A stretch of 48,831 nucleotides of DNA from Anaerolineae bacterium. Its GTDB lineage: Bacteria; Chloroflexota; Anaerolineae; UBA7937; B3-Chlor. The translations under genes and the position numbers were made by a program. The DNA is taken from positions 1-48,831 of the forward strand of contig DATKVP010000280.1 in NCBI GenBank assembly GCA_035530015.1, given 5' to 3'. The notes under the pieces were generated by a model. The model made no database searches, was not told the DNA's origin, and saw only the letters and a program-made list of their open reading frames with translations. Positions 334 through 47,617 of this stretch are shown here, piece after piece; position 1 is the stretch's first letter, and every line of letters begins with the position of its first letter.

Positions 334-355
334 GAGGTCAACAGATGTTGGCCTC
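334..355. repeat. palindrome family copy 1: GAGGTCAACA-GA-TGTTGGCCTC
   Basis: Read directly. 10-bp inverted arms with one mismatch. Intergenic, abutting the terminator. Confidence 0.9.
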
Positions 356-641
356 AGTACACCGGAATGCAGCTTGGCCTGCCGTGGCGGCTGCGCCGCA
401 CGTCGCGCTCCTTGCGGTCCGTGTCGTCTTCCAGCCACTCGTGCGCGGTCTGCTCGGACCACATCACGCGTTCCTCGTCCTCGGGCTCGTCCTCGGGCTC
501 GGGCGAATCCTCACGCATGAAGTCGCAGCCACACTGGCGGCAGCGGTACCACTCGCGCGCGTCGTGCTGAATGTGATTGTCCTCACCCACCCTGTACCAG
601 TCGAGCCTGCACCCCTGACCTCCGCACACCGGGCATGTCAT
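354..641 (-). CDS. small zinc-ribbon protein (MTCPVCGG...YRCRQCGC) with acidic C-terminal half
   Basis: ATG at 641 is preceded by AGGAGG and overlaps the upstream stop as ATGA. Two CxxC pairs. The track ORF 354..665 extends upstream without an RBS. Confidence 0.6.
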   Translation of the reverse strand: MTCPVCGGQGCRLDWYRVGEDNHIQHDAREWYRCRQCGCDFMREDSPEPEDEPEDEERVMWSEQTAHEWLEDDTDRKERDVRRSRHGRPSCIPVY

Positions 642-766
642 GACAGCACCTCCTCCTCGACCCACTCACCCCACCCCCACCCGCAGTGCCTGCACCGATA
701 GTAGTGAACATTCCCAAAGATGCCAAGATCTATGGGTCCGTCCGTCCCGCACTTCGGGCATGTCAT
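638..766 (-). CDS. 42-aa zinc-ribbon miniprotein, paralogue of 354..641 (below the ORF-track size cutoff)
   Basis: Hand translation: MTCPKCGTDGPIDLGIFGNVHYYRCRHCGWGWGEWVEEEVLS*. It has the same AGGAGGTGCTGTCATGACATGCCCG start context as the downstream gene. Confidence 0.55.
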   Translation of the reverse strand: MTCPKCGTDGPIDLGIFGNVHYYRCRHCGWGWGEWVEEEVLS

Positions 767-807
767 GACAGCACCTCCTTCATGAAGTTCTCCACACAGT
801 ACATGGC

Positions 808-1104
808 TCACTCTCCTTTCAGTTCCTTCAGCAGTCGTTGAAAGATGTCAGCTCGCGCGTCACCGTTGATGGCTCGATACAGCGCTGACCAGGCTGATAG
901 GTGATGCTCTGCCGTTTCTCGCGCGGCGACGACCCCATCCAGCATACGCAGCCCCTCCTCCGAACAGTGGATCATGTGGCGGCGCACGCAGGCCTCATCT
1001 TCCGCGATGCTGACCAGCAGACGCTGAAGCCGTTTCATCTCTCGCCTGGCGGCGTGGGACAGCTCCCACAGTCCTATCCCCGATGCGGCAAACGTGACGT
1101 CCAT
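808..1104 (-). CDS. hypothetical helical protein
   Basis: 98-aa ORF whose ATG shares one base with the ParB-like stop (TGATG). High GC3. Confidence 0.6.
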   Translation of the reverse strand: MDVTFAASGIGLWELSHAARREMKRLQRLLVSIAEDEACVRRHMIHCSEEGLRMLDGVVAARETAEHHLSAWSALYRAINGDARADIFQRLLKELKGE

Positions 1105-1814
1105 CAGACGCTCTGAGCGCTGATCCAGCGCTCCAGGGCCTCGCAGACCTCGTACACGTACTGCACCCGCTCACGCCACGTGTCGGCCTGCTTCGTGCTC
1201 ACACCCTCGGTGATCTTCGCGACGATGGCCGCAGCGACCTTGTCCGCCCCGCCACCCATCTTCGCCCCCGCGATCTTCCAGGCCACCGGGTCGCTGGTCT
1301 GCGCTTGCACCTTGCCGCCCTTGTCCACCTTGGGCTCGATCTTGGACTTGTGGCCGCTCATCTTGGCCTTCGGACTGACGGTGCCGACCGCATCTCGGTA
1401 GCGCTTGACGGTCATGTCGGACACGCCCAGGCGCTTGGCGATGGCGGCGTTCGACAGCTTGGCGAACGGCTTGAGTTGGATGATGGTGAGGATCGCCTTT
1501 CGCTTGTCCTCCGGCGTGAGGCTCAACCCGTGGCTGGCGTTGTCGGCGAACGTGGCCACCTCAGCGTCGGCCGCACTCTTGCAAGCGACCGTGGTGACCT
1601 CGATGTCCTTCAGCCCCGCCTTGACGGCCGCCGCGAGCCTGTGCGCGCCGCCGATCAACACCTGTGTCTTGGACTTGCCGACCTCGGCGACGGTCAGCGG
1701 AGGAAAGGTGGTCCCGGCCGCCATGAGCGCCGCATACTCCGCGACGGTCGCCGGGTCCGTGGCCTGTGTGCGGAACGTCCGCACGGGAAGCAGCACCAGC
1801 TCTTCGATCTTCAT
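1104..1814 (-). CDS. ParB/Srx-like N-terminal domain protein with central HTH
   Basis: VLIGGAHRLAAAVKAGL resembles the ParB-like nuclease-domain core (dGxHRxxA). NAAIAKRLGVSDMTVKRY is HTH-like. RBS AAGGAGG precedes the ATG. No ParA/Walker ATPase gene is nearby. Confidence 0.7.
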   Translation of the reverse strand: MKIEELVLLPVRTFRTQATDPATVAEYAALMAAGTTFPPLTVAEVGKSKTQVLIGGAHRLAAAVKAGLKDIEVTTVACKSAADAEVATFADNASHGLSLTPEDKRKAILTIIQLKPFAKLSNAAIAKRLGVSDMTVKRYRDAVGTVSPKAKMSGHKSKIEPKVDKGGKVQAQTSDPVAWKIAGAKMGGGADKVAAAIVAKITEGVSTKQADTWRERVQYVYEVCEALERWISAQSV

Positions 1815-1850
1815 CTTGACCTCCTTGGCTTGCCCTGAAGGGCAGCGAGT

Positions 1851-1873: not shown

Positions 1874-1886
1874 CCGCGCTGACCTC

Positions 1887-2648: not shown

Positions 2649-2677
2649 AGGTTACCATAGGCTTTCAATAGAGTCAA
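2649..2677 (-). promoter_or_regulatory. candidate sigma70-like leftward promoter
   Basis: On the minus strand: TTGACT (2677-2672), 17-nt spacer, TAACCT (2654-2649). The -35 element overlaps the left arm of the 2673-2715 palindrome. Confidence 0.35.
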
Positions 2678-2715
2678 CCATCACCACGGTCTGACCGTGG
2701 CGATGAGTGGTTGAC
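2673..2715. promoter_or_regulatory. nested imperfect palindrome in the divergent control region
   Basis: Outer arms GTCAACCA (2673-2680) and TGGTTGAC (2708-2715). Inner arms CCACGG (2684-2689) / CCGTGG (2695-2700) around TCTGA. The outer arms share the GTCAAC core of the dispersed palindrome family. Confidence 0.6.
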
Positions 2716-2748
2716 CGGTCTGTTACGCTGGAGGCCGGAGGACACGAC

Positions 2749-3270
2749 ATGGGACAGGCAGACATTGAGGCGTCGAGCAAGGCACGGTCGTTGGAGTGCG
2801 CCAAGCGCGACATGATGATCGATGGTGAGGTGGCCGAGATCGTCCGCACGAAGGTGCTGGCACAGCTCGATGGATTTACCTCTGACGAGAAGGATGACTT
2901 CCTGGCGGCGCTGATTGAGCACGGCAACATCGCCACGGCGTGCCGGCGTGTGGGCATCTCGCGCATGACGGCACACGCTGCACGGAAGCGCGACCCCGAG
3001 TTCGCGTGGCGCTGGGCTGAGATCATGGAGGCGTGGGTGGACGACATCGAGGCCGTGCTGATGCGGCAATGCCTCGATCCCAGCTCCGCCAACACCATCG
3101 CGAGGTTCTTCTACCTGAAGGCCCACCGAGGCAAGTACCGCGACGCGGTGCAGAACGCGGATCGCCCACAGCGGGCCGAGGTTCGCGTCGTCGTGGAGCT
3201 GCTTCCACCACGTGATCGGCCTGAAATGGTAATGGACGCAGAAGTCCTAGGGGAACCGAACCCTGACTAG
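2749..3270 (+). CDS. terS: terminase small subunit (HTH type), probable
   Basis: GGAGGA lies 8 nt before ATG 2749. The motif ACRRVGISRMTAHAARKRDPEFAWRWAEI...FFYLKAHRGKYRD is typical of HTH small terminases. It is the first gene of the rightward structural arm. Confidence 0.6.
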   Translation: MGQADIEASSKARSLECAKRDMMIDGEVAEIVRTKVLAQLDGFTSDEKDDFLAALIEHGNIATACRRVGISRMTAHAARKRDPEFAWRWAEIMEAWVDDIEAVLMRQCLDPSSANTIARFFYLKAHRGKYRDAVQNADRPQRAEVRVVVELLPPRDRPEMVMDAEVLGEPNPD

Positions 3271-3360: not shown

Positions 3361-3382
3361 AAGGTCAACACCTGTTGACCTG
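3361..3382. repeat. palindrome family copy 2: AAGGTCAACA-CC-TGTTGACCTG
   Basis: Perfect 9-bp arms (3362-3381). Intergenic, about 225 bp upstream of the LAGLIDADG gene. Confidence 0.9.
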
Positions 3383-3523: not shown

Positions 3524-3558
3524 CGATGATGTAGGCAATTCCGGGTATATAGCCGGGC

Positions 3559-3587
3559 TTGACTTTTGAGGGGGGTAGTCCTACGCT
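3559..3587 (+). promoter_or_regulatory. candidate sigma70-like promoter
   Basis: TTGACT (3559-3564), 17-nt spacer, TACGCT (3582-3587). It would give a short leader carrying TAGGAGG before ATG 3606. Confidence 0.3.
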
Positions 3588-3605
3588 GGGGGGTAGGAGG
3601 ATACT

Positions 3606-4115
3606 ATGAGAGGATTTACTTGGTTCTGCGGGCTGTACGAGGGAGATGGTAGTTGCAATGGCTCACTGCACAATAGGCCTTACATTCAGCTCCAGATACA
3701 AATGACCGACAAGGACGTGCTGGACGAGGTTGTGAGGATCGTGGGTGGCGCTGTTTCCGGCCCATACGAGCGGGGCGACCACCCTCAGCTCACGAGGAAG
3801 GACGGAACACCGTGCCCCCAGAAGGACATGTGGGCGTGGAAAGCCACGGGGTCCAGCGAGGAGAAGTACTGGCTGGTGCGTAGGATGATCCCGTACATGT
3901 GCTCTCGGCGTCGCGGGCAGCTTGAGGCGATGTTGGAGAAATGGCTTGAGCACAAGGGGTGGTGCAAGCTCGAGGACTGGAAGCGCGATGCGGAGCCCCC
4001 GTCAAAAAAGGCCTTGATCATGCACCATCGAGCGCTTGGATGGGGCTATAAGCGGATAGCTCGGGAGCTGGGGATCACAAGGGATCTTGTGCGGTACCAC
4101 GTAAAGACTTCTTGA
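3606..4115 (+). CDS. single-motif LAGLIDADG homing-endonuclease-like protein with C-terminal HTH
   Basis: N-terminal WFCGLYEGDGSC matches the LAGLIDADG motif (xxGLxxGDGS). C-terminal GYKRIARELGITRDLVRYHV is HTH-like. GC3 is lower than in neighbouring genes. Strong RBS TAGGAGG. Confidence 0.7.
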   Translation: MRGFTWFCGLYEGDGSCNGSLHNRPYIQLQIQMTDKDVLDEVVRIVGGAVSGPYERGDHPQLTRKDGTPCPQKDMWAWKATGSSEEKYWLVRRMIPYMCSRRRGQLEAMLEKWLEHKGWCKLEDWKRDAEPPSKKALIMHHRALGWGYKRIARELGITRDLVRYHVKTS

Positions 4116-5094: not shown

Positions 5095-5299
5095 ACTTGA
5101 GTTTGAGCTGCCGGAGGAAGCCGGGGCGTTCGAGGACGCGGCCAACGTGTGGAAGTACAAGTCGGTGGTGCGATCGGCGCTGGAGTCGATACGCGGCGAG
5201 CTGAAATACAACGACAACAGCGATGGTGGCGAGGCGGTGCTGACGTGGATGCGCGACATGATCATCCGTGAGCTGGACGAGTGGGGGTTGGACGTCTGA
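5084..5299 (+). CDS. hypothetical small protein
   Basis: MKAKLEFELPEE... AAAGGA lies upstream of ATG 5084. It overlaps the previous stop. Confidence 0.55.
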   Translation: MKAKLEFELPEEAGAFEDAANVWKYKSVVRSALESIRGELKYNDNSDGGEAVLTWMRDMIIRELDEWGLDV

Positions 5300-5550
5300 T
5301 GGCGATTCAAGAACGCACCTGTAAACGATGCAGCCACCACTGGGAGGTCTGGCGGCAGTTCATCAGGGACCTACCGATTCGGCCGGCGTGCCCCGAGTGT
5401 GGGAGCCGCGCCACCAAGGTTGAGATCATCGGGAGCGCTCCGGTACACTTCAAGGGCTACGGGTGGACGCCGAAACCAGGCACGGTCAACGACCTGCGGG
5501 ACATCAGGGGGATGGAAGACCCGAAGCTCGCGGAGGCGATGGATGACTGA
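5299..5550 (+). CDS. zinc-ribbon protein (CxxC...CPxCG, FmdB-like layout)
   Basis: MAIQERTCKRCSHHWE...ACPECGSRATKV. ATGA overlap with the upstream stop. Confidence 0.5.
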   Translation: MAIQERTCKRCSHHWEVWRQFIRDLPIRPACPECGSRATKVEIIGSAPVHFKGYGWTPKPGTVNDLRDIRGMEDPKLAEAMDD

Positions 5551-5761
5551 AGAGCCGTTCCTGCTTATTTCCAACACGGGGCCGGTGCGCTGCGCCAAGT
5601 GTGGGCGTGATATGCCCACCCCTGGTCGCATCGCGATCAAGACCATCGGCGACGCGCGGTACTACTGTGACTGTGTGACGGAGGACGAGATGCAGGGCAT
5701 CGTGGCGGAGTGGAACCAGTACATGGCGTTGGCCCAGATGCCGGACGCGAACCCACAATGA
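5543..5761 (+). CDS. small Cys-containing protein
   Basis: MTEEPF...RCAKCGRDM...YYCDC. GGAGG lies 6 nt upstream. It ends in an ATGA overlap with terL. Confidence 0.5.
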   Translation: MTEEPFLLISNTGPVRCAKCGRDMPTPGRIAIKTIGDARYYCDCVTEDEMQGIVAEWNQYMALAQMPDANPQ

Positions 5762-7131
5762 GCGAGGTACGCCTGAAGGTCGAGGGGACGGTCCCACAGA
5801 CTGAGTTTTGGCTGCGGGACGCTCGCTACAGGGCGTTCGTCGGCGGGGTGGGGTCCGGCAAGACCTACGCTGGGGTGTTGGAGATCCTGCGTCAACCCGA
5901 GGGAACTCGCGGTGCGGTCATCGCTCCGACGTACCGGATGCTGATGGACGCGACGCTCGACACGCTGATGAAGATCTTTGACAGAGCCGGCATCATCGAG
6001 AACTGGAGCAAGAGCGAGATGCGGTTGACTACGGTGCACGGCACCGACATCATCTTCCGGTCCGGCGACGACCCCGAGAAGCTGCGCGGCCCGAACCTGG
6101 GGTGGTTTTTCTTAGACGAGGCGGCCATGATGCCGGAGCTGGTGTGGGACATCATGCTCGGTCGGCTCAGGCTTGACCCAGGCCGCGCCTGGTGCACGAC
6201 CACGCCGAAGGGCATGAACTGGGTGCACCGACTGTTCGTCGGGGAAAAGAGGGAAGACTACGCGCTGACCCAGTGCTCGTCGCACTCGAACATCTTCCTT
6301 CCGAAGTACTTCCTCGACTCCCTGGAGAGCAAGTACAAGGGGGCGTGGAAGGAACAGGAGCTGATGGGTGAGTTCGTGGACTGGGTCAACGCGCCGGCCT
6401 ACGAAGACTTCCACCGGAACCTGCACGTCCGGCCCAACATGATGGAGGAATACCGTGACCGACTTCCGATCAAGCTCGCCGTTGACTTCAACGCCCGATG
6501 TATGGTCTGGCCTGTTATACAGGTCAACGGGAGAACCCCTCGTGTTCTTACGGAGATCGTACAGGTTGGGAGAACATCAATCCCAAAAATGGTCCAGGAG
6601 TTCAGGCTCGCGTTTCCGAATCACTCTGGAGGTGTTCAGATATTCGGTGACGCTTCTGGCCTTGGTCTGGCTGCCCAGACTGGTCAAAACTCCTTCGACG
6701 CGGTACTGGAAGCGTTTAGAGGATACCCGTCGCACATCGACCTCTGCGTCCCCAAAACGAATCCGCTTGTGAGGTCCAGCGTCAACTCGATGAACGCTGT
6801 GCTCCGCGGCACCGGAGAATGGGAGCCGCTGATGATCGACGAGAGCTGCGACATGATCATCCGTGACTTCGCGTTCGTTGAGTGGGACGCGAAGGGCACC
6901 AACCTACTGAAGATCGACGACTTGAACGACGAGCGCAGCACACTGACGCACGCGACCGACGCGCTGCGGTATTGGGCGAGTATTGACTCACCGATTTCAT
7001 CCGTGTATATCTCCAGGGAGGACGACAACTTTGTCGAGCTTCCACGCGAAGACGCTCGTAGGAGAGCATGGATGAAGCGGTTGAAAGGCGAGGAGCCAAA
7101 TCCAGATGGGCTTTTCGGTTTAGAGTTGTAG
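5758..7131 (+). CDS. terL: terminase large subunit
   Basis: Walker A VGGVGSGKTY and Walker B-like GWFFLDEAAMM, followed by a C-terminal nuclease-sized domain. Start taken at MSEVRL (ATG 5758). Confidence 0.85.
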   Translation: MSEVRLKVEGTVPQTEFWLRDARYRAFVGGVGSGKTYAGVLEILRQPEGTRGAVIAPTYRMLMDATLDTLMKIFDRAGIIENWSKSEMRLTTVHGTDIIFRSGDDPEKLRGPNLGWFFLDEAAMMPELVWDIMLGRLRLDPGRAWCTTTPKGMNWVHRLFVGEKREDYALTQCSSHSNIFLPKYFLDSLESKYKGAWKEQELMGEFVDWVNAPAYEDFHRNLHVRPNMMEEYRDRLPIKLAVDFNARCMVWPVIQVNGRTPRVLTEIVQVGRTSIPKMVQEFRLAFPNHSGGVQIFGDASGLGLAAQTGQNSFDAVLEAFRGYPSHIDLCVPKTNPLVRSSVNSMNAVLRGTGEWEPLMIDESCDMIIRDFAFVEWDAKGTNLLKIDDLNDERSTLTHATDALRYWASIDSPISSVYISREDDNFVELPREDARRRAWMKRLKGEEPNPDGLFGLEL

Positions 7132-13854: not shown

Positions 13855-13856
13855 AG

Positions 13857-14012
13857 ATGGATCTGCTCGAGCAACTGTTGGAACGTCGCGATCAACTCAA
13901 GACAGACGAGGTGCAGGCGATTCACTCACTGGGGTTCGTCGCCGGCAGACTGGAGGAGCTTGAGACACTCATCAAGCTCATTGAAACACCAACAGAGGTC
14001 AGTGAAGACTGA
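13857..14012 (+). CDS. 51-aa coiled-coil miniprotein
   Basis: MDLLEQLLERRDQL... AGGAG lies upstream of the ATG. Confidence 0.45.
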   Translation: MDLLEQLLERRDQLKTDEVQAIHSLGFVAGRLEELETLIKLIETPTEVSED

Positions 14013-14021: not shown

Positions 14022-14050
14022 TGACCTGGGGGCTACGGCCCCCAGGTCTT
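14022..14050 (+). terminator. rho-independent terminator-like hairpin
   Basis: GACCTGGGGG (14022-14031) / CCCCCAGGTC (14038-14047) with a 6-nt loop, then TTT. Confidence 0.6.
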
Positions 14051-14065: not shown

Positions 14066-14389
14066 GTGGAAATGAAACAGTACTTCGGAAAATTCAGCGG
14101 CAGGATCGCTGGAATTCCAAATTGGCACGGCGGCGTGTTCTTCACCGCGAACCGCCAGCTTCAGCAGCGCATCGAGAACCATCCCCGGTTCCACGCTGGC
14201 CTCATCACCGAGGTCAAGCAATCCCAGAAACCTCAAGAGGACGCGGGGTCAGATGCACCCACCTGGAGGGAGCACGTGGAGGGGCTGAAGTGGAACGACC
14301 TGCGTGCGCTGGCCAATGACCGGGGCATTGCACTGTTCCACAAGAAGACTGTAGACTTGGTCGAGGAGCTGGTCAAGCTGGGGGAGTAG
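14066..14389 (+). CDS. hypothetical protein with a SAP/Rho_N-like HeH C-terminus
   Basis: The C-terminal WNDLRALANDRGIALFHKKTVDLVEELVKL resembles a helix-extension-helix motif. The start could be GTG 14066 or ATG 14072. Confidence 0.45.
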   Translation: MEMKQYFGKFSGRIAGIPNWHGGVFFTANRQLQQRIENHPRFHAGLITEVKQSQKPQEDAGSDAPTWREHVEGLKWNDLRALANDRGIALFHKKTVDLVEELVKLGE

Positions 14390-22810: not shown

Positions 22811-23224
22811 ATGTTACCGATCCCGTATCTGAAGGAAGTGCTCATCGGAGCCGTGGTGCTGCTCGTCGTTTTCATTGGCGTTCAGACAGCGCGGTTGTCA
22901 ATCTGCAAGTCCAACCTGCGGGCGTCACAGGCGGAACTCCAGAACGTCGTCAACATGCTGGAGCTGTCGAGGTCAACAGTTGTTGACCTCCGTGCCAAGA
23001 TCGACACACAGAACATCTTCCTGCGTGAGGCGCAGGCGCTTGGTATGTCGGCTCAGGCGGCGCAGGACGCGTCGCTCAGGATCGCTCGGGAGTTGGCGCT
23101 CGCCAAACAGAAGTTGGATTCTCTTTTACAAGAGCACTCAGCTCTGAAGAAGCGGGCCGAGAATCTCAACACCTGCGAGACCTACGAGCTGGTCTTGCAG
23201 AGTATCGCGGGGGTGCTGCCGTGA
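22811..23224 (+). CDS. i-spanin (Rz-like)
   Basis: N-terminal TMD VLIGAVVLLVVFIGV followed by a periplasmic coiled coil. Lysis-cassette position. Confidence 0.7.
   Translation: MLPIPYLKEVLIGAVVLLVVFIGVQTARLSICKSNLRASQAELQNVVNMLELSRSTVVDLRAKIDTQNIFLREAQALGMSAQAAQDASLRIARELALAKQKLDSLLQEHSALKKRAENLNTCETYELVLQSIAGVLP
22969..22990. repeat. palindrome family copy 3: GAGGTCAACA-GT-TGTTGACCTC (perfect 10-bp arms)
   Basis: Read directly. It lies inside the i-spanin gene and is translated as RSTVVDL. Confidence 0.95.
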
Positions 23225-26886: not shown

Positions 26887-26895
26887 GGAGTGAAC

Positions 26896-29800: not shown

Positions 29801-32800
29801 AGTGGGCAAAGAGCGTCGGCATCATCGGCATCGCTACTGACATGACGTCCCCCTCGGAGCAGTTGGGGCGCTTCGTTGTCGAGCAGTTTACAAGGGGGAC
29901 GGTGAAGGACGGAGAGTACCAGGTCTACAACCCGCAGGCGCACGAGAAGCGTGTCGCCGAGAAGAAAGCGACCATGAAGAAGGCAATCACACAACAACTC
30001 TCTCGGCATGCGCCGCTTGCGAAGCGATTCGCAGCAGACCTGGAAAGAGGCATCGTCCCTGAGCAGCCTGAGCAGATCCCGCTGTTCTCCACAGAGCGTG
30101 TGGGTTACCCGCCGCTGGCACAGACCCCCGCTGAGCTACGCACGTGGCGCGCCAAGCTCGCGAAGATGGTCTGGCGCGGAGTCAAGGGCAAGATGTGGTA
30201 CGAGCTGTCGGCCGCGGCAATACTCCAGATGTCCGGCGGGAACCTCGAGACGGCACGTAAGTTCACTAGACTGGTTGCCGTCTACTCACCCCAGACCGGC
30301 GTGATGACCAACTGGCACCGCGCACTTACAGCCTGGCAGCGATACATGGCTGGATACTCCAAGAGCGACTTTCTCAAAGAGCGACTCGGTAACGATGACA
30401 ACCACCAGAAGGCCGCGGCCATCCTCTACGACGACGCAGCGTGGGACGGGGAGAAGACCAACAGCTTCTTCAGTAACCTGTTCACCCTGCTCGACTCTGA
30501 GGTACCGGACCGCGCCACCATCGACCTGTGGATGATGCGGGCAATGGGGTTCTCAGGGGACGCTCCAAGCCCCACACAGTACAGGGCCATGGAGAAGGAA
30601 GTGAAGCGCCTGGCCAAGAAGCTCGACGTCGAGACGCACCAGGCTCAGGCCATGATCTGGGTCTACGCCAAGTCGGTGTGGGAAAGCAAGGAAGTGAAGG
30701 AGGCCGCGTACGCTGAAGCGGCGAAGCGGGACATGACCACACACGTGCCCAAGGTCGCCAACGGGAAGATCGTGAAGGACAAGCGCGGCAAGGTCATGAT
30801 GACCTCCACGCCTGAGTTCGAGGCGCTGTACAGGGGGACGTTCAACGCTGCGGTCAAGCGGGACCTCGGAGCCGACGTGACGCTGTACCCGATCTCAGAG
30901 CAGTCCATGACGACGTTCGCGACTGGGTTGGAACGCCGAGTGGCGACGATCTCCATGGAGGCCATCCCCGGCGTGGGGTGGTTCAAGAATCTGTCCAGCG
31001 CAGACATATCAACCAAGGTCTGGTTCACGCTTGGAGTTGAGCAGGCGCTCGTGGACGAGGTCGGCGACATCATCGGTCAGGAGATGGGCATCAGCCCGGT
31101 CGCGGACATCAACATGATGCTGCTTGGCAACTCCGCGTACTACGACGGTGGACGCATTCAGGTCAATCCGAGTAGACAGATCAAGGTCCCGGCGGCCGCC
31201 AAGGGCGGTGCCGAGAGCAGCTACATGTGGGACGCGGCCAGCAAGGACCAGGTCACGCTGTACGCCGTCATCCGAGGGATGCTCACGGGCCAGGAATCGG
31301 TCGCCGGCTACCGCAGGTTCGATCAGAACCCGGTGGTCGAAGAGCGCAACATGGCCGAACTGAGGATTGGAAATCGTCTGAGCTACGACCAACAGACGGA
31401 GCTGGTGGAGAAACTCACGAACGTCGTGAAGAGCCGCAGTGGGAAGCTCCAGGGGTGGGAGGTGGCGCTGTACCCAACTGAAGACGGCGTGGCGTTCATG
31501 AACACCACCGCGGCCAACATGACCAACCTCGAGTTCCATGACGTGGTCAAGGAGACCATCAGTGAGCTGAGTTTCAAGAAGGGTGCTAAAATGAGCACCT
31601 GGGCCGCGGACACGTTCTACGTGGAGGCCGAAAACGACACAGGGGAGGTAGACACCTATGGGCAAATCATCGCAGGGAGAACGGACATACTCAGAAGGGT
31701 GGAGGATCGGGTCGCCGATAAACTCTCGAAGCACTATCTTGCAGCGCAGGACAGGGGACTCGGAGACGCCCCAGAGTGGGCCGTTGCCTACAGAGACACG
31801 GAAACGACTCTTCGACGAGATGCTAAAAGCTACACGCACTACTGGCACTTCTCGGTCGCGGACGTAACCGATGAAGGTATCAAGCGAGATTTTGCGGGAA
31901 CTGGAGCCACTGGCCAAGAGGGACAACGTTTTCGTTTTGATCCGAATACCGGAAAGCTGGATCCAGAGAGTGCTGTTATCCATCTGTACCTGCCTACCGC
32001 ACGCGCTGAGGCGGCGGTTGTATCCAAGGCTTCGTTTATCAACAAGGTTATTGCCGATCTCCGCCTTATTCCCACCGACAGCGCAGGACTAGGTGACCTA
32101 TATCGTAAACACAACGGCGACGCCGTGGCCGTGGCTACTGAGCTACGGTCCATGGGCTACGACGGTATCGTGGACGTGGACCGAGGGATGGTGCAGGTCA
32201 ACCGCGACATCGACGTGTCTGAACTGGGAGAAGGACACGAGCTGACACCGAAGGAGCGACGCGCGTGGAAGGGCGCTCTGAGGCTGGAGGATATGGAGGA
32301 GGGCGAGAGCTATGACCACATCCGAGTCCCCCGTGTCCAGGAACTGAAGCGCGCTGACGTGGAGCATGTTGCCTCTCGGTTGACCGACGACGGTGTGGCG
32401 TACTTCCCCAAGGGCACCAATGAGCGCATGGTCAAGCAGTACTTTGACGAGGTGAGGTCAACGTCTGTTGGCCTCGTGGCCACGAAACCGAGGCGTCCGC
32501 AGTTCTCCACCAGCATCGTAGACCAGCACCAGGTCCCCGTCGGAGACATGAACGTCGTAGACGACGAGGTTGCGTACGGCACGCGGTACGCCACGCAGTC
32601 CGGCCCCGGCTGGAGCCTGCCTGGCATGGACCGATGGGACTGGTTCGTAAAATGGGCACAGGACAGTCTCGTTCAATTCAAACGCTTAAATGATGTGTTC
32701 ACGGACCACGGAATCGAGATCGGTGAGGAGATCAACGTCCGTCTGGCCGAGGAGCTGTACCACGGCAAGGTACAGGAGGCCACGAAGCGCATCGACGAGA

Positions 32801-35551: not shown

Positions 35552-35572
35552 ATTAATGAAAGGAGATTGCAT

Positions 35573-37198
35573 GTGCTAGAACTCAGCGAGATTGGTGGTC
35601 GTATCGCTGTGACCGGAGATACCTATCCGGTCGCTGACCTGCTGAAGGTCATTCCTGGGTACAGGTGGGAAAAGGCGCTCAGGGCCTGGACGTACCCGCT
35701 TACCCCCCACAGTCTCAACCTACTCAAGACTGCGTTTCCAGATGCAAGGTCAACACTTGTTGACCTCGAAACAAAAACCGACCTTCTGAAACAGGCCATG
35801 GAAGCAAAGGCGGCCGACAGGTTCATCCCGTTCGAGACCAGGATGAGGCCGTGGCTGCACCAGATGCGCTCGTTCTACTTCGCCAAGTATCGCCTCATGG
35901 CCCAGGGTGGGGCGATGCTGGCGCTCGATATGGGCACCGGCAAGTCCAAGGTGACGATCGACCTGATCAACGAGTTCGACTGCAAGCGCGTGCTGATCAC
36001 GTGCCCGCCGAACGTGATGGACGTGTGGCCCGAGCAGTTCGAGGAACACAGTCCGGCGCATCATCGCGTCTACGTCTGCAACCGGAAGCACTCGGTGGCG
36101 CGCAGGTGGAAGGAAGCCGAACAGTTCATGGAGGAGCACCACGGATGTGGCATCGTGGTCGTCAACCACGAGGCGGTGTGGATGCCGGGGTTCCGAAATG
36201 AGGCGCTCGCGTGGCCATGGGACATGCTGGTCGTGGACGAGTGTCACCGAGCGAAGCTCGCCAGTGGAAAGCTGAGCCGATACCTGCACCGCCTGTCCAA
36301 GCACATCCCGCTACGCCTGGGCCTCACGGGCACCCCGTGCCCCCACAGCATTGACGACTTCTACGCGCAGGCCAGGTTCATCGACGAGTCGGTGCACGGC
36401 ACCAACCACCAGGTGTACAAGTCCAAGTACATGGTACAGATACCTGGGCACAACGACAGCTACCAGAAGGTCATTGGCTTCAAGAACATGGACGACTGGA
36501 ACGAGAAGTTCCACAGCATGGCCATCCGCGTGGAGGCCGACGACGTGCTGGATCTGCCGGCGTGCGTACACACTACCAGGTACTGCGACCTAAGCCCCGA
36601 GGAAGAGACCGCCTACAACGACATGAAGCACGAGCTGATCGCCGAGGTCAAGGGCGGGGTCATCACCGCGGCGAACGCGCTGGTGAAGCTGCTGCGTCTG
36701 GCACAGATCGTACAGGGCACCGTGACCAACGCGATGGGAGACAGTGTAGAGATCGGAGTGTCCAAGAAGACGGTGCTCATCGATACGTTCCACGAGATCC
36801 CCACCAGCGAACCGGTGATCGTGTTTTGCCGATTCAAGTGCGACCTAAAGAACATCAAACTCGCAGCCGCCCGCGGCGGCCGTGACAGCTACGAGCTGTC
36901 CGGGGCATGCAAGGAGCTGGACGAGTGGAAGGCCAACGGCGGCGTTCTCGCCGTACAGATTCAGTCCGGTGGCGTCGGCATCAGTATGGTGCAGGCCAAG
37001 TACTGCATCTACATGTCGAAAGACTTCTCACTCGGGAACTACGAGCAGTCGTTGGCCCGCATCAAGCGGCCTGGGCAGAATCGTAACGTTACATACATTC
37101 ACATCCTCGCGAGGGGCACGATCGACGAGACGATCAACAAGGCGCTTGCCCAGCGCAAGGACACGATCGAGGCGATCCTCGAAGAAATGGGAAGTTAG
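35573..37198 (+). CDS. SNF2-family helicase / DNA-dependent ATPase
   Basis: Motif I LDMGTGKSK, motif II VVDECHR, motif III LGLTGTP. GTG 35573 is preferred because AAAGGAG lies 7 nt upstream. The track's TTG at 35567 is too close to the SD. Confidence 0.85.
   Translation: MLELSEIGGRIAVTGDTYPVADLLKVIPGYRWEKALRAWTYPLTPHSLNLLKTAFPDARSTLVDLETKTDLLKQAMEAKAADRFIPFETRMRPWLHQMRSFYFAKYRLMAQGGAMLALDMGTGKSKVTIDLINEFDCKRVLITCPPNVMDVWPEQFEEHSPAHHRVYVCNRKHSVARRWKEAEQFMEEHHGCGIVVVNHEAVWMPGFRNEALAWPWDMLVVDECHRAKLASGKLSRYLHRLSKHIPLRLGLTGTPCPHSIDDFYAQARFIDESVHGTNHQVYKSKYMVQIPGHNDSYQKVIGFKNMDDWNEKFHSMAIRVEADDVLDLPACVHTTRYCDLSPEEETAYNDMKHELIAEVKGGVITAANALVKLLRLAQIVQGTVTNAMGDSVEIGVSKKTVLIDTFHEIPTSEPVIVFCRFKCDLKNIKLAAARGGRDSYELSGACKELDEWKANGGVLAVQIQSGGVGISMVQAKYCIYMSKDFSLGNYEQSLARIKRPGQNRNVTYIHILARGTIDETINKALAQRKDTIEAILEEMGS
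35746..35767. repeat. palindrome family copy 5: AAGGTCAACA-CT-TGTTGACCTC
   Basis: Read directly. It lies inside the SNF2 gene and is translated as RSTLVDL. Confidence 0.9.
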
Positions 37199-42978: not shown

Positions 42979-43692
42979 ATGTCCGACGCGATCGCGAAAG
43001 CTGGAACGTTCGCAGCCCTGGCCGTCCCCGAAGGTGACTTCGGGCTCCAGGACATCGTCACCATCAACATGGGCGGTCAGGGGATCGACCCCAACAAACT
43101 TGACCGTGTCAAGGTACCAAGCGGTGGCAACCTGGCGTGGGAGGTCATCGACGAAAACGGAGAGCCAGAGCCCAGGAAAGAGCTGGTCGGCGTCATCGTT
43201 GGTCAGTTCCCGACCAGGGTGTACTACGCAACCGAGTACACCGGAGGCAACGAGTCCCCGGACTGCTCCAGCCAGGACGGCATCAACGGAGTACCACAGG
43301 AGTCCGGCCTCGGGTACGGTGGCAAGTGCTCGTCGTGCCCCAAGTCCCAGTGGGCCAACGGCCAGAAGCCGGAGTGCTCGCAGCGCAAGAAGCTGCTGCT
43401 GCTTGAACCGGACTCTATCCTGCCGCTGGTCATCGACGTGCCACCCACGTCGCTCGACCCCGTGGACAAGTACCTGCTTCGCATCACGAAGAAGAAGGTC
43501 CTGTTCTTCCAGTGTGTGACCAGCCTCAAGCTGTCCAAGGAGAAGAACAAGGGCGGCATTGAATATGCGCGCATCGCCCCTGGGTTCGTCCGGGTCTTGG
43601 ACGCTGACGAGCGGGCCTCGGCGTTCGCCATCTACAAGGGCCTGTCACAGGCGTTCTCGTCGGCGTCTCTGGAAGACGAGCCCCCGTACTAG
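42979..43692 (+). CDS. hypothetical protein with a 4-Cys cluster and acidic C-terminal tail (ssDNA-binding or recombination candidate)
   Basis: The cluster is SPDCSS...GGKCSSCPKSQW...PECSQ. The tail ...SASLEDEPPY* resembles the acidic/aromatic tails of SSBs. Strong RBS TAGGAGG. The functional call is speculative. Confidence 0.3.
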   Translation: MSDAIAKAGTFAALAVPEGDFGLQDIVTINMGGQGIDPNKLDRVKVPSGGNLAWEVIDENGEPEPRKELVGVIVGQFPTRVYYATEYTGGNESPDCSSQDGINGVPQESGLGYGGKCSSCPKSQWANGQKPECSQRKKLLLLEPDSILPLVIDVPPTSLDPVDKYLLRITKKKVLFFQCVTSLKLSKEKNKGGIEYARIAPGFVRVLDADERASAFAIYKGLSQAFSSASLEDEPPY

Positions 43693-43711
43693 GCCAACAG
43701 GTGTTGACCTC
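43690..43711. repeat. palindrome family copy 6: TAGGCCAACA-GG-TGTTGACCTC
   Basis: Read directly. It starts on the TAG stop codon of the previous gene and abuts the terminator. Confidence 0.85.
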
Positions 43712-43738
43712 AGCCCCGCCCACGTGGGCGGGGCTTTT
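43712..43738 (+). terminator. rho-independent terminator
   Basis: AGCCCCGCCCAC / GTGGGCGGGGCT 12-bp self-complementary stem, followed by TTTT. Confidence 0.8.
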
Positions 43739-43756
43739 CACCACAAAGGAGAACCC

Positions 43757-45714: not shown

Positions 45715-45733
45715 AATCCGGGTGTATAGCGAA

Positions 45734-45767
45734 GGGTGAGGAGGGTTTTGCCTCCCCCTTTTTTTTT
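45734..45767 (+). terminator. rho-independent terminator
   Basis: GGAGG (45740-45744) / CCTCC (45751-45755), with additional G:C pairs possible, followed by a T9 run (45759-45767). Confidence 0.7.
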
Positions 45768-45769
45768 GA

Positions 45770-45901
45770 GTACCCTTTTACCGGTCAAGTTGTTTATAAT
45801 GAGTAGTTTACGTACCCATATTTTTACCCATAGCCTTTCTATAGTACGGGTACTCGCAGACACTCGGTCTCATTTAGTCCCATTTTGGTACACTTTTTAC
45901 C
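45770..45901 (+). repeat. AT-rich block with three GTAC(C/A)C-(N0-4)-TTTTACC repeats
   Basis: GTACCCTTTTACC (45770-45782), GTACCCATATTTTTACC (45812-45828), GTACACTTTTTACC (45888-45901). Also a perfect TATAAT at 45795-45800 and GTCTCATT twice. Confidence 0.7.
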
Positions 45902-45913
45902 GACATTTATTAC

Positions 45914-47617
45914 TTGTCTCATTCTCGTTTACGGAAGTCCTTGGGGAACCGACCACCATGTGGAGGCAAAACGTACCACAAGGTTCGCCATATACCCGTA
46001 GGTGCCCCAGTGCGTGAAAACCACTACACCATCGTGGGAGCCCCCGGCTCCGGCAAGACCACCGCACTTGTGGGTAGGATCGCCAAGGCCGTGGGTGAAA
46101 CAATGTACGGCGGCGACATCATGATCTGTTCCCTGACCAGGACAGCGGCACACGAGATCGCTGAACGTGTCAAGCTGAAGGTCCCCGGTGTTGAGTTCCC
46201 GCATGTCGGCACCATCCACGCGCTTGCGCTGCGTGCACTCAAGGTCATCGGTGACAACGTAAACCTTGTGTATGAAGAGGAGCACATTCGTGACTTCAAC
46301 CAGATCTACAAACGAAAACTCCCGCTTAATCTCGGAAACACGCTGTTCGATCCCGAGGGGCGGAACCGGTCGCTCATCCAACTTGCAGACGTCGATCGCA
46401 GACGAGCTTCTGGTCAACCCTCCTCTGAGTGGCCCTTTGTGACCCAGCAGTTTCACCACCAGTGGGAGGCGTGGAAGGGACTCCGAGGGCTGCTGGACTT
46501 CACGGATCTGATCGTGCGGGCCACCGCGGTGTGCCAGCGCCACCCAGCAAACCCGAAGTACATCTTTGTGGACGAGGCCCAGGACCTGAGCCGCCTAGAG
46601 ATGGGCTTGATTCGTCAGTGGGCGGAGGCCACCGAGAAGACCATCGTGGCCGGCGACGACCAACAGGCGCTGTACGAGTGGCGTGGTGCCAGTGTTCAGG
46701 ATTTCATCATGTTCGCTCCGAGTGAACACCAGTACGTTCTGCCACGGAGCTACCGCATGAGCCGAGCGATCTACGACCAGGCCAAGAAGTTCGGTGACAA
46801 GATCTCGATCAAGATCGAGAAGAAGTTTGATCCGGTCGGTGAAGGTGGCGTGGTTCTGAAGCGCCAGGCCATGAACCTAATGTCTGCGATCAACGCCGAC
46901 CTCGACGATGATGAGATCAACAGTGTCATGCTGCTGGCGAGCTGCGGCTACATGCTGAACCCGTACCTCAAGGAGCTGCGGAAGGCCGGTGTCCCGTTCC
47001 ACAACCCGTACCGCTCGCGGGCCGAGGGCAAGACCTGGAACCCACTGGGATCCAAGTACGCCAACGCGTTCAGGTACTTTCTGATGCCGAGCGAAGGTCA
47101 ACAGATGTGGACCTGGCAGCAGCTCTGGCGCGTGGCCAGCCCCATGAACAACAAGTACTTTCGCTTCATAGAGGCCGTGGCTGCCAACAGGCACAGCAAA
47201 AGGATGGTGGAACTGGACTTCTTTGACGAGTTCGATCTTGACGAGCTGTTCGTTGCAGCCTACCGAGGTGACTACAGGGCTTACTTCGACATGCTCGACA
47301 GGAAGCACAGGCTCGGCACCTCCCCTGGGTTCATAACTCCAATGAGCTACATCAAGCGAGTGTTGGACGCGCACGGTCGTCGTGCGCTGGACACCGCACC
47401 CAAGCTCGTCGTTGGCACGATACACAGCGTCAAGGGAGGTGAGTCTGACGCCGTGTACGTGCTTCCGACTCTGTCCCCGGAGGCGCAACGCAACATGAAC
47501 ACGAGGGCAGGACGAGACAGCGTGCTCCGCACGTTCTACGTCGGAGTGTCGCGCGCCAAGCACAAGCTGGTGCTGGTCCAGGACCCCAAGAACGCAAGGA
47601 GGTCAATGTGGCTATAA
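45914..47617 (+). CDS. UvrD/Rep-like superfamily-1 helicase
   Basis: Walker A GAPGSGKTT, motif II FVDEAQDL, VGTIHSVKGGESDAV and YVGVSRAKHKLVLV. The start is uncertain: TTG 45914 or in-frame GTG 46010, just before Walker A. Confidence 0.8.
   Translation: MSHSRLRKSLGNRPPCGGKTYHKVRHIPVGAPVRENHYTIVGAPGSGKTTALVGRIAKAVGETMYGGDIMICSLTRTAAHEIAERVKLKVPGVEFPHVGTIHALALRALKVIGDNVNLVYEEEHIRDFNQIYKRKLPLNLGNTLFDPEGRNRSLIQLADVDRRRASGQPSSEWPFVTQQFHHQWEAWKGLRGLLDFTDLIVRATAVCQRHPANPKYIFVDEAQDLSRLEMGLIRQWAEATEKTIVAGDDQQALYEWRGASVQDFIMFAPSEHQYVLPRSYRMSRAIYDQAKKFGDKISIKIEKKFDPVGEGGVVLKRQAMNLMSAINADLDDDEINSVMLLASCGYMLNPYLKELRKAGVPFHNPYRSRAEGKTWNPLGSKYANAFRYFLMPSEGQQMWTWQQLWRVASPMNNKYFRFIEAVAANRHSKRMVELDFFDEFDLDELFVAAYRGDYRAYFDMLDRKHRLGTSPGFITPMSYIKRVLDAHGRRALDTAPKLVVGTIHSVKGGESDAVYVLPTLSPEAQRNMNTRAGRDSVLRTFYVGVSRAKHKLVLVQDPKNARRSMWL
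47094..47115. repeat. palindrome family copy 7 (most degenerate): AAGGTCAACA-GA-TGTGGACCTG
   Basis: Read directly. It lies inside the helicase gene in a different codon phase (EGQQMWTW). Confidence 0.7.

What the first reader, a model, noticed from the sequence alone, without database searches (positions are those of the whole stretch)
334..47115. Seven dispersed copies of a 20-22 bp palindrome (G)AGGTCAACA-NN-TGTTGACCT(C)
Seven copies were read directly from the sequence. They are 334-355 GAGGTCAACAGATGTTGGCCTC, 3361-3382 AAGGTCAACACCTGTTGACCTG, 22969-22990 GAGGTCAACAGTTGTTGACCTC (perfect 10-bp arms), 32454-32475 GAGGTCAACGTCTGTTGGCCTC, 35746-35767 AAGGTCAACACTTGTTGACCTC, 43690-43711 TAGGCCAACAGGTGTTGACCTC and 47094-47115 AAGGTCAACAGATGTGGACCTG. 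The arms are conserved while the central 2 bp vary freely (GA, CC, GT, TC, CT, GG, GA). That pattern is what a dimeric DNA-binding protein site looks like, not a simple duplication. A fixed 16-nt core is expected far less than once by chance in about 49 kb (4^16 is about 4e9). Three of the seven copies lie in the small amount of intergenic DNA, and two of those abut terminators. The divergent control region at 2673-2715 carries inverted GTCAAC half-sites of the same flavour. Candidate partners encoded here are the ParB-like/HTH protein, by analogy with KorB, a ParB-family global regulator with palindromic operators scattered over plasmid RK2. The LAGLIDADG-HTH protein and the HTH small terminase are the other candidates. 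As RNA, each copy could also fold into a 9-bp stem with a tetraloop. I cannot assign the function. This looks like a genome-wide cis-element network that standard annotation would miss.
Basis: partly seen in the sequence, partly recalled or inferred. Interest (0 to 1): 0.8.

Follow-up and report, generated by a model that had tools for sequence, protein, structure and literature searches.

The report
Conserved palindromic protein-binding sites across phage genome
An uncultivated phage lineage keeps seven or eight copies of one 20-bp palindrome at the same genome positions, even inside genes, most likely as docking sites for its own ParB/KorB-like DNA-binding protein.

Summary
Seven copies of AGGTCAACA-NN-TGTTGACCT (at most 2 mismatches) lie at the stated coordinates, against 0 expected in shuffles. 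The window is a nearly complete phage genome with an SU10-type capsid, no ParA and no integrase.

Ten or more related metagenomic phages (about 45-80% protein identity), several of them found without using the motif, carry it in the same eight syntenic slots. These include slots inside the polyvalent-protein, SNF2 and UvrD genes. The 18 specified bases are 91% identical between orthologous sites. The central dinucleotide is 36% identical and the flanks 41%.

Base identity is conserved, not just complementarity. A9/T12, which cannot pair in a hairpin, are conserved, and uncompensated mismatches persist. Sites inside genes use minor codons, and their deviations follow coding limits (a Trp codon, avoidance of TGA). 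Sites are occasionally lost or relocated within the same gene. Exact copies are at chance level in 185,579 species genomes, so this is not a host repeat.

The best reading is a set of operator/parS-like sites for a dimeric HTH protein. The most likely partner is the phage's ParB-fold protein (1104-1814), whose model matches Spo0J, KorB and Noc and whose HTH is invariant. Binding and function are inferred only. The LAGLIDADG-HTH gene is a mobile insert and is excluded.

The parts
335..354 (.). Site S1, AGGTCAACAGATGTTGGCCT. It lies between the stop codon of the last gene of the leftward block (354-665, - strand) and the bidirectional terminator hairpin at 305-326.
   Evidence: Orthologous sites are present in relatives B, C, E, F, G, H, I and J and absent in A.
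3362..3381 (.). Site S2, AGGTCAACACCTGTTGACCT (perfect). It is intergenic, 92 bp downstream of the small terminase gene.
   Evidence: The orthologous site lies 150-210 bp downstream of terS in all ten relatives A-J.
14237..14256 (.). Decayed remnant of slot S8 (GGGTCAGATGCACCCACCTG) inside gene 14066-14389. Relatives A and B carry a perfect site here, and H has one about 300 bp further on.
22970..22989 (.). Site S3, AGGTCAACAGTTGTTGACCT (perfect; 22-bp palindrome 22969-22990). It lies inside gene 22811-23224, codons 54-60 (R S T V V D L).
   Evidence: A perfect site sits at the same codon position in relative B although the protein is only 37% identical.
32455..32474 (.). Site S4, AGGTCAACGTCTGTTGGCCT. 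It lies inside the 2844-aa polyvalent protein gene (26890-35424), at codon about 1856 (R S T S V G L).
   Evidence: The same position is occupied in A, F and G-like L106, and is decaying in K/L104.
35747..35766 (.). Site S5, AGGTCAACACTTGTTGACCT (perfect). It lies inside the SNF2 helicase gene (35567-37198), at codon about 61 (R S T L V D L).
   Evidence: The same position is occupied in A and F. G-like L106, K/L104 and L107 instead carry a site at SNF2 codon about 162.
43691..43710 (.). Site S6, AGGCCAACAGGTGTTGACCT. Its first two bases are the AG of the TAG stop codon of gene 42979-43692. The intrinsic terminator at 43713-43739 follows directly.
   Evidence: The same stop-site-terminator arrangement is seen in A, B, C, F, G and J.
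47095..47114 (.). Site S7, AGGTCAACAGATGTGGACCT. It lies inside the UvrD-type helicase gene (45914-47617), at codon about 394 (G Q Q M W T W). The T15G deviation is a Trp codon.
   Evidence: The same position and the same TGTGGAC variant occur in A, B, C, F, G, H and J.
1104..1814 (-). Gene for a 236-aa ParB/Srx-fold plus HTH protein, the proposed binding partner (inferred).
   Evidence: PHROG ParB-like partition protein, E 9e-14. Weak HTH hits at residues 103-142. The AlphaFold2 model (pLDDT 78.5) matches Spo0J 1VZ0, KorB 8QA9/8QA8, Noc 7NG0/7NFU and ParB 6SDK/6T1F at Foldseek probability 1.00. The helix-turn-helix 'KLS..A....GVSDM..KRYRD' is invariant in 12 homologues that are 46-64% identical overall.
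2649..2677 (-). Sigma-70-like promoter TTGACT-17-TAACCT for the leftward block that contains the ParB-like gene (consensus match only).
   Evidence: Equivalent TTGAC(A/T)-17-TAnnnT elements are present in relatives I and J.

Best explanation
The seven copies (eight slots in the lineage) are high-affinity, dyad-symmetric binding sites in duplex DNA for a dimeric helix-turn-helix protein encoded by the phage. Each site has two 9-bp half-sites, AGGTCAACA, whose centres lie 11 bp (about one helical turn) apart. The most likely partner is the ParB/KorB/Noc-fold protein of 1104-1814, expressed from the leftward promoter. A dimer would bind each palindrome through its invariant recognition helix. From these points, 2-11 kb apart around the whole chromosome, the protein would act on the genome as a whole. 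By analogy with KorB, Noc and ParB it would nucleate spreading, sliding or bridging that organises, silences or shields the phage DNA. Shown: the sites are real, lineage-specific, under strong purifying selection at the DNA level, and not a host repeat. Inferred: that a protein binds them, that it is the ParB-like protein, and what the binding achieves.
For: Non-chance occurrence:
- 7 sites against 0 in shuffles.

Orthologous conservation:
- Relatives were found through the ParB-like, terL and SNF2 proteins, independently of the motif. They carry it in the same slots.
- Pairwise identity is 91% in the 18 specified bases, 36% in the centre and 41% in the 30-nt flanks.
- S3 is perfect in two genomes whose host protein is only 37% identical.

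Sequence recognition rather than structure:
- G3, C5, A7, C8, G13, T14 and G16 are invariant in 34 non-redundant sites.
- A9 and T12, which cannot pair around a 2-nt centre, are 94% and 88% conserved.
- Pair 4/17 is broken on one side in 9 of 34 sites, about equally on either arm. Pair 6/15 is broken in 7 of 34. Neither is compensated.

DNA-level selection inside genes:
- Minor codons are used: TCA 13%, ACA 16%, GTT 15%, GGT 21%, CAA 17%.
- Three non-homologous proteins in the window (S3-S5) and the S8 host protein in relatives A and B encode R-S-T-x-V-D/G-L.
- Deviations match coding limits: Trp at S7, and TGT TGA avoided at the second SNF2 slot.
- Sites arise by substitution without indels.

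Turnover with retention of a site in the same region:
- The SNF2 site sits at codon 61 or codon 162; S8 is shifted in H, lost in the window; S1 is lost in A.
- Spacing is somewhat more even than random (P = 0.046).

Partner:
- ParB-like fold with an HTH DNA-binding domain.
- The recognition helix is invariant, while the terS HTH varies.
- The two lineages with changes in the first HTH helix (H, I) are the ones whose sites differ at the outer two positions. In I the change is symmetric, to GAGTCAAC...GTTGACTC.
- The HTH gives weak sigma-70 region 4 hits, and each half-site contains TTGAC.
Against: - No binding data exist; the assignment to the ParB-like protein is by elimination and analogy.
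- All members of the lineage share most genes, so co-occurrence does not single out this protein.
- The protein has GGAHRLAAA where canonical CTP-dependent ParB, KorB and Noc have GERRxRA (the canonical motif is quoted from general knowledge). Clamp-type sliding may therefore not apply.
- It has no sequence-level match to any solved ParB, and Pfam ParB_N is only weak.
- No ParA is encoded, so a classical partition role is unlikely.
- The motif bears no resemblance to parS, OB or NBS sequences.
- Five of the seven copies could also form stable hairpins as RNA (-11 to -13.5 kcal/mol).
- The symmetric change in lineage I is equally what a stem would show.
Confidence: 0.5

Rival explanations
1. 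The sites are duplex-DNA binding sites for a different dimeric protein. This could be another small conserved phage protein of unknown function, such as the zinc-ribbon proteins 354-665 or 5281-5550 or other products of the leftward block. It could also be a host transcription factor or nucleoid protein that the phage exploits.
For: All the evidence that the sites are sequence-specific duplex elements applies equally. Many conserved phage genes have no annotation. The identical 20-mer is used as a paired operator between a TetR-family gene and an FAD monooxygenase gene in Kribbella, Nocardia and an Actinomycetota MAG. This shows that unrelated HTH dimers can use this sequence.
Against: No TetR-like or other classical repressor domain was found in the phage proteins scanned. 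A host global regulator with this consensus should leave several exact copies in host genomes. The scan of 185,579 species genomes gave only 36 scattered single-locus hits, none with phage-like context. The ParB-like protein is the only conserved protein here with a fold known to bind palindromes in multi-site networks.
Confidence: 0.24
2. The palindromes act as hairpins in single-stranded nucleic acid. As RNA they would be stem-loops for mRNA processing, stability or attenuation. As ssDNA hairpins they would be used for priming or as N4-type hairpin promoters.
For: Five of seven fold as an 8-9 bp stem with a tetraloop at -11 to -13.5 kcal/mol. S1 and S6 lie between a stop codon and an intrinsic terminator. 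Lineage I shows a symmetric double change at the two outer pairs, which is formally compensatory. The phage encodes a large injected polyvalent protein and a primase-polymerase-like protein.
Against: Base identity, not pairing, is conserved. Apart from lineage I there is no compensatory change in 34 sites. Single-sided changes give C.A on the mRNA strand as often as G.U (5 against 4 at pair 4/17). An A.G mismatch in the middle of the stem is fixed at S7 in eight genomes. S6 and S7 fold weakly (-6 and -7.5 kcal/mol), yet they are the most widely conserved slots. A9/T12 would lie in the loop but are conserved as a complementary pair. In lineage H the outer positions do not pair. There is no Rfam match, no T-tract and no -10 element at promoter spacing.
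Confidence: 0.1
3. The sites are packaging or replication signals. They would be multiple pac-like sites read by the HTH small terminase, or multiple origins read by the primase-polymerase/helicase module.
For: S2 lies 90-200 bp downstream of terS in every relative. terS has an HTH. S5, S6 and S7 lie in or next to replication genes.
Against: The terS recognition helix varies between relatives while the motif core is invariant. pac sites and origins are normally single or clustered, not eight dispersed identical palindromes (general knowledge). Sites also lie in lysis, head-tail and polyvalent-protein genes.
Confidence: 0.06
4. The sites are targets of the homodimeric LAGLIDADG-type homing endonuclease encoded at 3606-4115, which would recognise a 22-bp pseudo-palindrome.
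For: The ORF has a single GLYEGDGS LAGLIDADG-like motif plus an HTH. Single-motif enzymes cut palindromic sites of about 22 bp (general knowledge). The gene sits 170 bp from S2.
Against: The gene (window 3550-4107) is replaced by 22 bp in a 99.9%-identical contig, and it is absent from all relatives A-J that keep the motif. The genome that carries the gene also carries seven intact sites, so it would cut itself.
Confidence: 0.02
5. The sites are a host REP-like repeat, a miniature mobile element, or chance.
For: None beyond the fact that they are short dispersed palindromes.
Against: Zero sites are expected by chance. Across 596 Gb of genomes there are only 36 single-copy hits, none phage-related. 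Slots are orthologous, and sites appear and disappear by point substitution without indels or target duplications.
Confidence: 0.01

Closest known systems
KorB and its OB operators on IncP plasmid RK2
   Same: A ParB-fold protein with a central HTH binds a short palindrome present in multiple copies scattered over a roughly 50-60 kb replicon. Some copies lie far from promoters. KorB acts genome-wide (PMC11790492: a CTPase clamp that slides up to 1.5 kb from OB). KorB structures 8QA8/8QA9 are among the best fold matches.
   Different: The motif sequence is unrelated (OB core TTTAGCGGCTAAA). No KorA-like or IncC/ParA partner was found. The GERR motif is replaced by GGAHR. Here most sites lie inside ORFs at conserved codon positions. 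The replicon is an apparently lytic phage.
Noc and its NBS sites; chromosomal ParB and parS
   Same: A ParB-fold dimer binds 14-16 bp palindromes at many dispersed positions and spreads from them. Noc 7NG0/7NFU/7OL9, Spo0J 1VZ0 and ParB 6SDK/6T1F are top fold matches.
   Different: Those proteins are cellular, CTP-dependent and work with membrane or SMC/ParA partners (general knowledge). The phage protein has no sequence-level similarity to them. The site has 9-bp arms with a free 2-bp centre.
Dispersed centromere sites of the linear plasmid-prophage N15 (SopB sites), recalled from memory
   Same: A phage genome with several copies of a palindromic ParB-family binding site scattered among unrelated genes.
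   Different: N15 is a plasmid prophage with SopA (ParA) and a protelomerase. No ParA, integrase or protelomerase was detected here.
Genome-wide operator sets of temperate phages (L5 gp71 stoperators, P1 C1 operators), recalled from memory
   Same: One phage-encoded DNA-binding protein with about 10-30 sites spread over the phage genome.
   Different: Those sites are asymmetric, mostly intergenic and orientation-dependent, and they serve an immunity repressor. Here the sites are perfect dyads, mostly intragenic, and no immunity or lysogeny module is seen.
Phage ParB-like activators of thymine dioxygenases (PMC13229309)
   Same: A ParB homologue in phages with a non-segregation role.
   Different: Those ParBs lack a DNA-binding domain and pair with a 5mYOX enzyme. 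The protein here has an HTH, and no dioxygenase was detected.

Membership tests
ParB-family multi-site DNA-binding system (ParB-parS, KorB-OB, Noc-NBS) | Multiple copies of a short palindromic site on the replicon | tested here: met
   Seven copies of a 20-bp dyad in the window and eight orthologous slots in the lineage.
ParB-family multi-site DNA-binding system (ParB-parS, KorB-OB, Noc-NBS) | A protein with the ParB/Srx N-terminal domain followed by an HTH DNA-binding domain, encoded on the same replicon | tested here: met
   PHROG ParB-like, E 9e-14. The AF2 model matches Spo0J, KorB, Noc and ParB over about 130-150 residues at Foldseek probability 1.00, E 2e-5.
ParB-family multi-site DNA-binding system (ParB-parS, KorB-OB, Noc-NBS) | CTP-binding arginine motif GERRxRA in the N-terminal domain (clamp mechanism) | tested here: not met
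   The aligned position reads (V/I)GG(A/F/M)HR(L/V)AAA in nearly all of the 12 homologues, with G56, H58 and R59 invariant. It resembles the Srx/'ParB-like nuclease' HR motif. Nucleotide binding as such was not tested.
ParB-family multi-site DNA-binding system (ParB-parS, KorB-OB, Noc-NBS) | Specific binding of the protein to the palindrome | not testable with these tools
   Needs EMSA, ChIP or protein-DNA co-folding.
Type I ParABS partition system | A ParA (deviant Walker A, KGGxGK[ST]) ATPase gene next to parB | tested here: not met
   There is no ParA/CbiA hit in the Pfam, PHROG or NCBIfam scans. The only Walker A motifs are in terL, UvrD and SNF2.
Host REP/BIME-like repeated palindromes | High copy number in bacterial chromosomes | tested here: not met
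   There are 36 single-locus exact matches in 596 Gb from 185,579 species, and none has phage genes nearby. The host itself is unknown, so absence from it is not proven.
Intrinsic terminators | G+C-rich hairpin followed by a U-tract, located downstream of genes | tested here: not met
   No T-tract follows the sites. Four of seven lie inside ORFs. S1 and S6 have separate canonical terminators next to them.
Structured RNA element | Pairing maintained by compensatory substitutions while sequence drifts | tested here: not met
   Sequence is conserved and mismatches are uncompensated. The only symmetric double change is in lineage I. No Rfam family matched.
Homing-endonuclease target sites (homodimeric LAGLIDADG) | The endonuclease gene co-occurs with, and disrupts or lies next to, its target, and the carrier genome lacks cleavable sites | tested here: not met
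   The gene is absent from relatives that keep all sites, and the carrier genome keeps seven intact sites.
Sigma-70 promoters | A -35 TTGACA-like hexamer with a -10 TAnnnT hexamer 16-18 bp downstream | tested here: not met
   Each arm contains TTGACC, but no -10-like hexamer (best 3 of 6) follows at 16-18 bp on either strand at any site.

The most novel reading that the evidence does not exclude
An apparently lytic phage uses a ParA-less, possibly CTP-independent ParB-fold protein. Its roughly eight loading sites are spaced around the whole chromosome and are maintained even inside essential ORFs by recoding. Together they would coat, compact, silence or shield its own replicating genome. This would be a phage 'chromosome-organising' system and would give a function to the widespread but uncharacterised ParB-like/HTH proteins of virulent phages.
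Probability: 0.3. Interest if true: 0.8.

Novelty: new variant of a known kind. Interest (0 to 1): 0.66.

Why it matters
ParB-like/HTH proteins are common in phage genomes, and most have no known role or target. Here a candidate target is defined to the base, with the proviso that the protein-site link is inferred rather than shown. Comparative evidence shows that each site is under selection strong enough to override codon preference and to dictate seven amino acids in unrelated proteins. That makes the function directly testable, with one protein and one 22-bp duplex. The case also shows that protein-coding regions of phages can carry conserved regulatory or architectural DNA signals that gene-centred annotation does not see. 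If the protein acts like KorB or Noc, it would extend ParB-type long-range DNA organisation or silencing to lytic viruses.

Tried and rejected
- Megablast of 12 kb against 50,697 phage records found no match. Only distant portal homologues were found.
- Rfam gave no family.
- Sequence searches of the ParB-like protein and of its family profile against PDB gave nothing meaningful. Only the fold search worked.
- Three of the literature searches (dispersed palindromes with ParB-like proteins in phages; the motif itself; phage-encoded ParB) returned nothing relevant. A fourth gave the KorB paper and a phage ParB-dioxygenase paper. The latter concerns ParBs without a DNA-binding domain.
- Distant terL relatives (25-35% identity) share no other genes and have no repeated palindromes.
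- The metagenome scan with SNF2 gave one extra relative.
- Viral-contig scans with the tail protein and gp23556 gave no new genomes, so S3 rests on two genomes only.
- Promoter hypothesis: rejected because there is no -10 element.
- Isolated half-sites: 5 against about 2 expected, not convincing.
- Mobile-element origin: rejected because sites arise by substitution without indels.
- The Anaerolineae MAG hit L051 is a lone intergenic hairpin unrelated to the phage.

Full report
**1. Observation**

- AGGTCAACANNTGTTGACCT with up to 3 mismatches finds 7 sites and nothing else. Shuffles give 0.00.
- The 12-base core GTCAAC-N4-GTTGAC with up to 1 mismatch finds the same 7, against 0.10 expected.
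- The central dinucleotide differs from site to site.

**2. Genome context**

- The window is 57-64% G+C. Nearly all genes are on the + strand, from terS (2707-3270) round to the window end.
- A small leftward block (354-2622) contains the ParB-like gene 1104-1814.
- Recognisable genes:
  - terL 5710-7131;
  - an SU10-type portal and major capsid protein;
  - an endolysin at 22071-22601;
  - a 2844-aa polyvalent protein (LPD38, DUF7178);
  - SNF2 and UvrD helicases;
  - a primase-polymerase-like protein.
- No ParA, integrase or repressor was found.
- The window is not quite a closed circle. A 99.9%-identical contig has about 905 bp more between the window's end and its start.
- Three sites are intergenic. 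S1 lies between a stop codon and a terminator. S2 lies 92 bp after terS. S6 overlaps a TAG stop and is followed by a terminator.
- Four sites lie inside ORFs: gp22811, the polyvalent protein, SNF2 and UvrD.

**3. Relatives**

- No cultured phage is close.
- Scanning IMG/VR for the motif found three contigs with several copies each. These turned out to be relatives with 50-80% protein identity.
- Relatives were then retrieved without using the motif. Homologues of the ParB-like protein were used. terL was used. SNF2 was used.
- Every relative with at least about 50% identity carries the motif in the same syntenic slots:
  - S1: between the end of the rightward unit and the end of the leftward block.
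  - S2: downstream of terS, in all ten relatives.
  - S8: head-tail region. It is perfect in A and B, shifted in H, and decayed in the window at 14237-14256.
  - S3: gp22811 codon 54.
  - S4: polyvalent protein, codon about 1856.
  - S5: SNF2, codon about 61.
  - S6: at the stop codon of gp42979, followed by a terminator.
  - S7: UvrD, codon about 394.
- Between orthologous sites the 18 specified positions are 91% identical. The two central positions are 36% identical and the 30-nt flanks 41%.
- S3 is perfect in two genomes whose host protein is 37% identical.

**4. Duplex site or hairpin?**

In 34 non-redundant sites:
- Seven positions are invariant and the rest nearly so, so base identity is conserved and not merely complementarity.
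- A9 and T12 flank a 2-nt centre and cannot pair in a hairpin, yet they are 94% and 88% conserved as a complementary pair.
- Pair 4/17 is broken on one side in 9 sites. In 5 of them this gives C.A on the mRNA strand and in 4 it gives G.U. It is never compensated.
- Pair 6/15 is A.G at S7 in every genome.

As RNA, S6 and S7 fold weakly (-6 and -7.5 kcal/mol, against -11 to -13.5 for the others). They are nevertheless the most widely conserved slots.

The deviations have coding explanations:
- S7 reads GGT CAA CAG ATG TGG ACC, and its G15 is part of a Trp codon.
- In reading frame 1 the consensus would read TGT TGA. The frame-1 sites in SNF2 therefore carry TGT TGG or TGT GGA.
- Four of the five in-ORF slots use frame 0 and impose R-S-T-x-V-D/G-L on unrelated proteins, using minor codons (TCA 13%, ACA 16%, GTT 15%).

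Sites appear and vanish by substitution, without indels. This excludes a mobile element.

The sites are not terminators, since they have no T-tract and separate terminators lie alongside them. They are not promoters, since no -10 element follows. They match no Rfam family.

**5. Not a host repeat**

The exact consensus occurs at 36 loci in 596 Gb from 185,579 species. Each locus has one copy, the loci are scattered over unrelated taxa, and none has phage genes nearby.

One recurrent hit is instructive. In Kribbella, Nocardia and an Actinomycetota MAG, the same 20-mer occurs twice, 57 bp apart, between a TetR-family gene and an FAD monooxygenase gene. That is a classical operator arrangement. 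The sequence is therefore of the kind that HTH dimers read. The occurrence is convergent and unrelated to the phage.

**6. Turnover**

- S5 sits at SNF2 codon 61 in W, A and F. In G-like L106, K/L104 and L107 it sits at codon 162 instead.
- S8 moved about 300 bp in H and was lost in the window. S1 is absent from A.
- Each genome thus keeps 7-8 sites, with gaps of 2-11 kb. The largest gap is smaller than for random placement (P = 0.046).
- This pattern fits a function that needs sites distributed along the chromosome rather than at exact nucleotides.
- A more distant relative (L107, SNF2 47% identical) has one site in 15 kb. L108 (44% identical) has none in 12 kb.

**7. Partner**

- The LAGLIDADG-like ORF 3606-4115 has the motif GLYEGDGS. 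It lies in a 558-bp segment that is replaced by 22 bp in a 99.9%-identical contig. It is missing from all relatives. It is a free-standing homing endonuclease gene and not the partner.
- The terS HTH varies between relatives (ISRMTAHAARKRD, ISRRAVNTAAERD, VSRRTAITARQRD) while the motif core does not.
- The ParB-like protein remains.
  - It hits the PHROG 'ParB-like partition protein' family at 9e-14.
  - Its AlphaFold2 model has pLDDT 78.5, with a disordered linker at 147-187.
  - The best PDB matches are Spo0J 1VZ0, KorB 8QA9/8QA8, Noc 7NG0/7NFU/7OL9 and ParB 6SDK/6T1F, over the N-terminal domain plus the HTH.
  - The segment KLSNAAxAKRLGVSDMTxKRYRD is essentially invariant in 12 homologues that are 46-64% identical overall.
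  - The two lineages with substitutions in the first HTH helix (H: KLSHTKAAALLG; I: KLSNVKAAQRMG) are the two whose sites differ at the outer two positions. In I the change is symmetric, to GAGTCAAC...GTTGACTC, in four of four half-sites.
  - This is suggestive only, because all lineage members share most genes.

Against canonical ParB behaviour:
- Box II reads GGAHRLAAA and not GERRxRA.
- There is no sequence-level PDB match.
- There is no ParA.

**8. Control region**

The GTCAAC/GTTGAC pair at 2673-2715 is the outer end of a separate imperfect palindrome upstream of terS. Read leftward, it gives TTGACT-17-TAACCT directly upstream of the first gene of the leftward block. Relatives I and J have equivalent GGGGG-TTGAC(A/T)-17-TAnnnT elements. 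It is a promoter-like element and not a motif half-site.

**9. Conclusion**

The finding is real. The sites are best explained as a lineage-specific network of dyad-symmetric protein-binding sites. Their most probable partner is the phage's own ParB/KorB/Noc-fold HTH protein.

The closest known system by architecture is KorB-OB on RK2 (PMC11790492). Membership of the CTP-clamp ParB family is not established, because the GERR motif is not met, and classical ParABS partition is excluded. What the binding does is inference; it could be genome organisation, long-range silencing, or shielding of the DNA.

Noticed in passing
window 3550-4107 (ORF 3606-4115): A free-standing homing endonuclease gene with a single LAGLIDADG-like motif (GLYEGDGS) and a C-terminal HTH. 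The 558-bp segment is replaced by 22 bp in a 99.9%-identical contig (L087) and is absent from all relatives. It sits 170 bp from site S2, which is intact in both forms.
   Followed up: yes
window ends (48513-48831 and 1-295), compared with L087: The window is not a closed circle. The near-identical contig has about 905 bp between the window's end and its start. A gene of about 345-424 aa (C-terminus hits PHROG 'endonuclease' phrog_93; no Pfam domain) is cut by the window ends.
   Followed up: partly
window 2673-2715: A 43-bp imperfect palindrome (GTCAACCATCACCACGGTC T GACCGTGGCGATGAGTGGTTGAC) lies immediately upstream of terS. It overlaps the -35 of a leftward sigma-70-like promoter (2649-2677, - strand). 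It may be a separate operator or a pac-related element, and it is not conserved as such in relatives.
   Followed up: partly
L007-L013 (IMG/VR contigs with a 35%-identical ParB-like protein): A different phage lineage (about 47% G+C) has its own 20-bp palindromes. L008, L009 and L013 have AGAAAAATT-NN-AATTTTTCT, and L007 and L012 have AGAAATSATTAATSATTTCT. They are intergenic and partly clustered around a gene of about 240 aa. The ParB-like recognition helix differs (..LVESVRG against ..LVNLVRG) in step with the palindrome type. This may be the same kind of protein-site pairing, or operators of another regulator.
   Followed up: partly
L069, L071, L072, L074, L082 (Kribbella, Nocardia, Actinomycetota MAG): The identical 20-mer AGGTCAACANNTGTTGACCT, plus a degenerate second copy 57 bp away, lies in the divergent intergenic region between a TetR-family (TetR_C_16) gene and an FAD-dependent monooxygenase gene. 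This is a presumptive TetR operator pair that is convergent with the phage motif.
   Followed up: partly
window 26890-35424: A 2844-aa polyvalent protein (LPD38 at 2533-2740, DUF7178 at 1098-1261) is conserved at 45-64% identity in relatives. It is probably a virion-delivered multifunctional protein, and most of its length has no recognisable domain.
   Followed up: no
L104 4392, L106 10473, L107 10479, compared with window 35747: The binding site inside the SNF2 gene has turned over. It is at codon about 61 in W, A and F and at codon about 162 in three other lineages. At the second position the consensus is altered (TGT TGG or TGT GGA) because the perfect motif would create a TGA stop in that frame.
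   Followed up: yes
window 48277-48297 and 14025-14046: Two other perfect palindromes are unrelated to the motif. CAACACTTTTCAAAAGTGTTG lies inside gene 48244-48546. CCTGGGGGCTACGGCCCCCAGG lies between 13824-14012 and 14066-14389 and is likely a terminator after the capsid genes.
   Followed up: no
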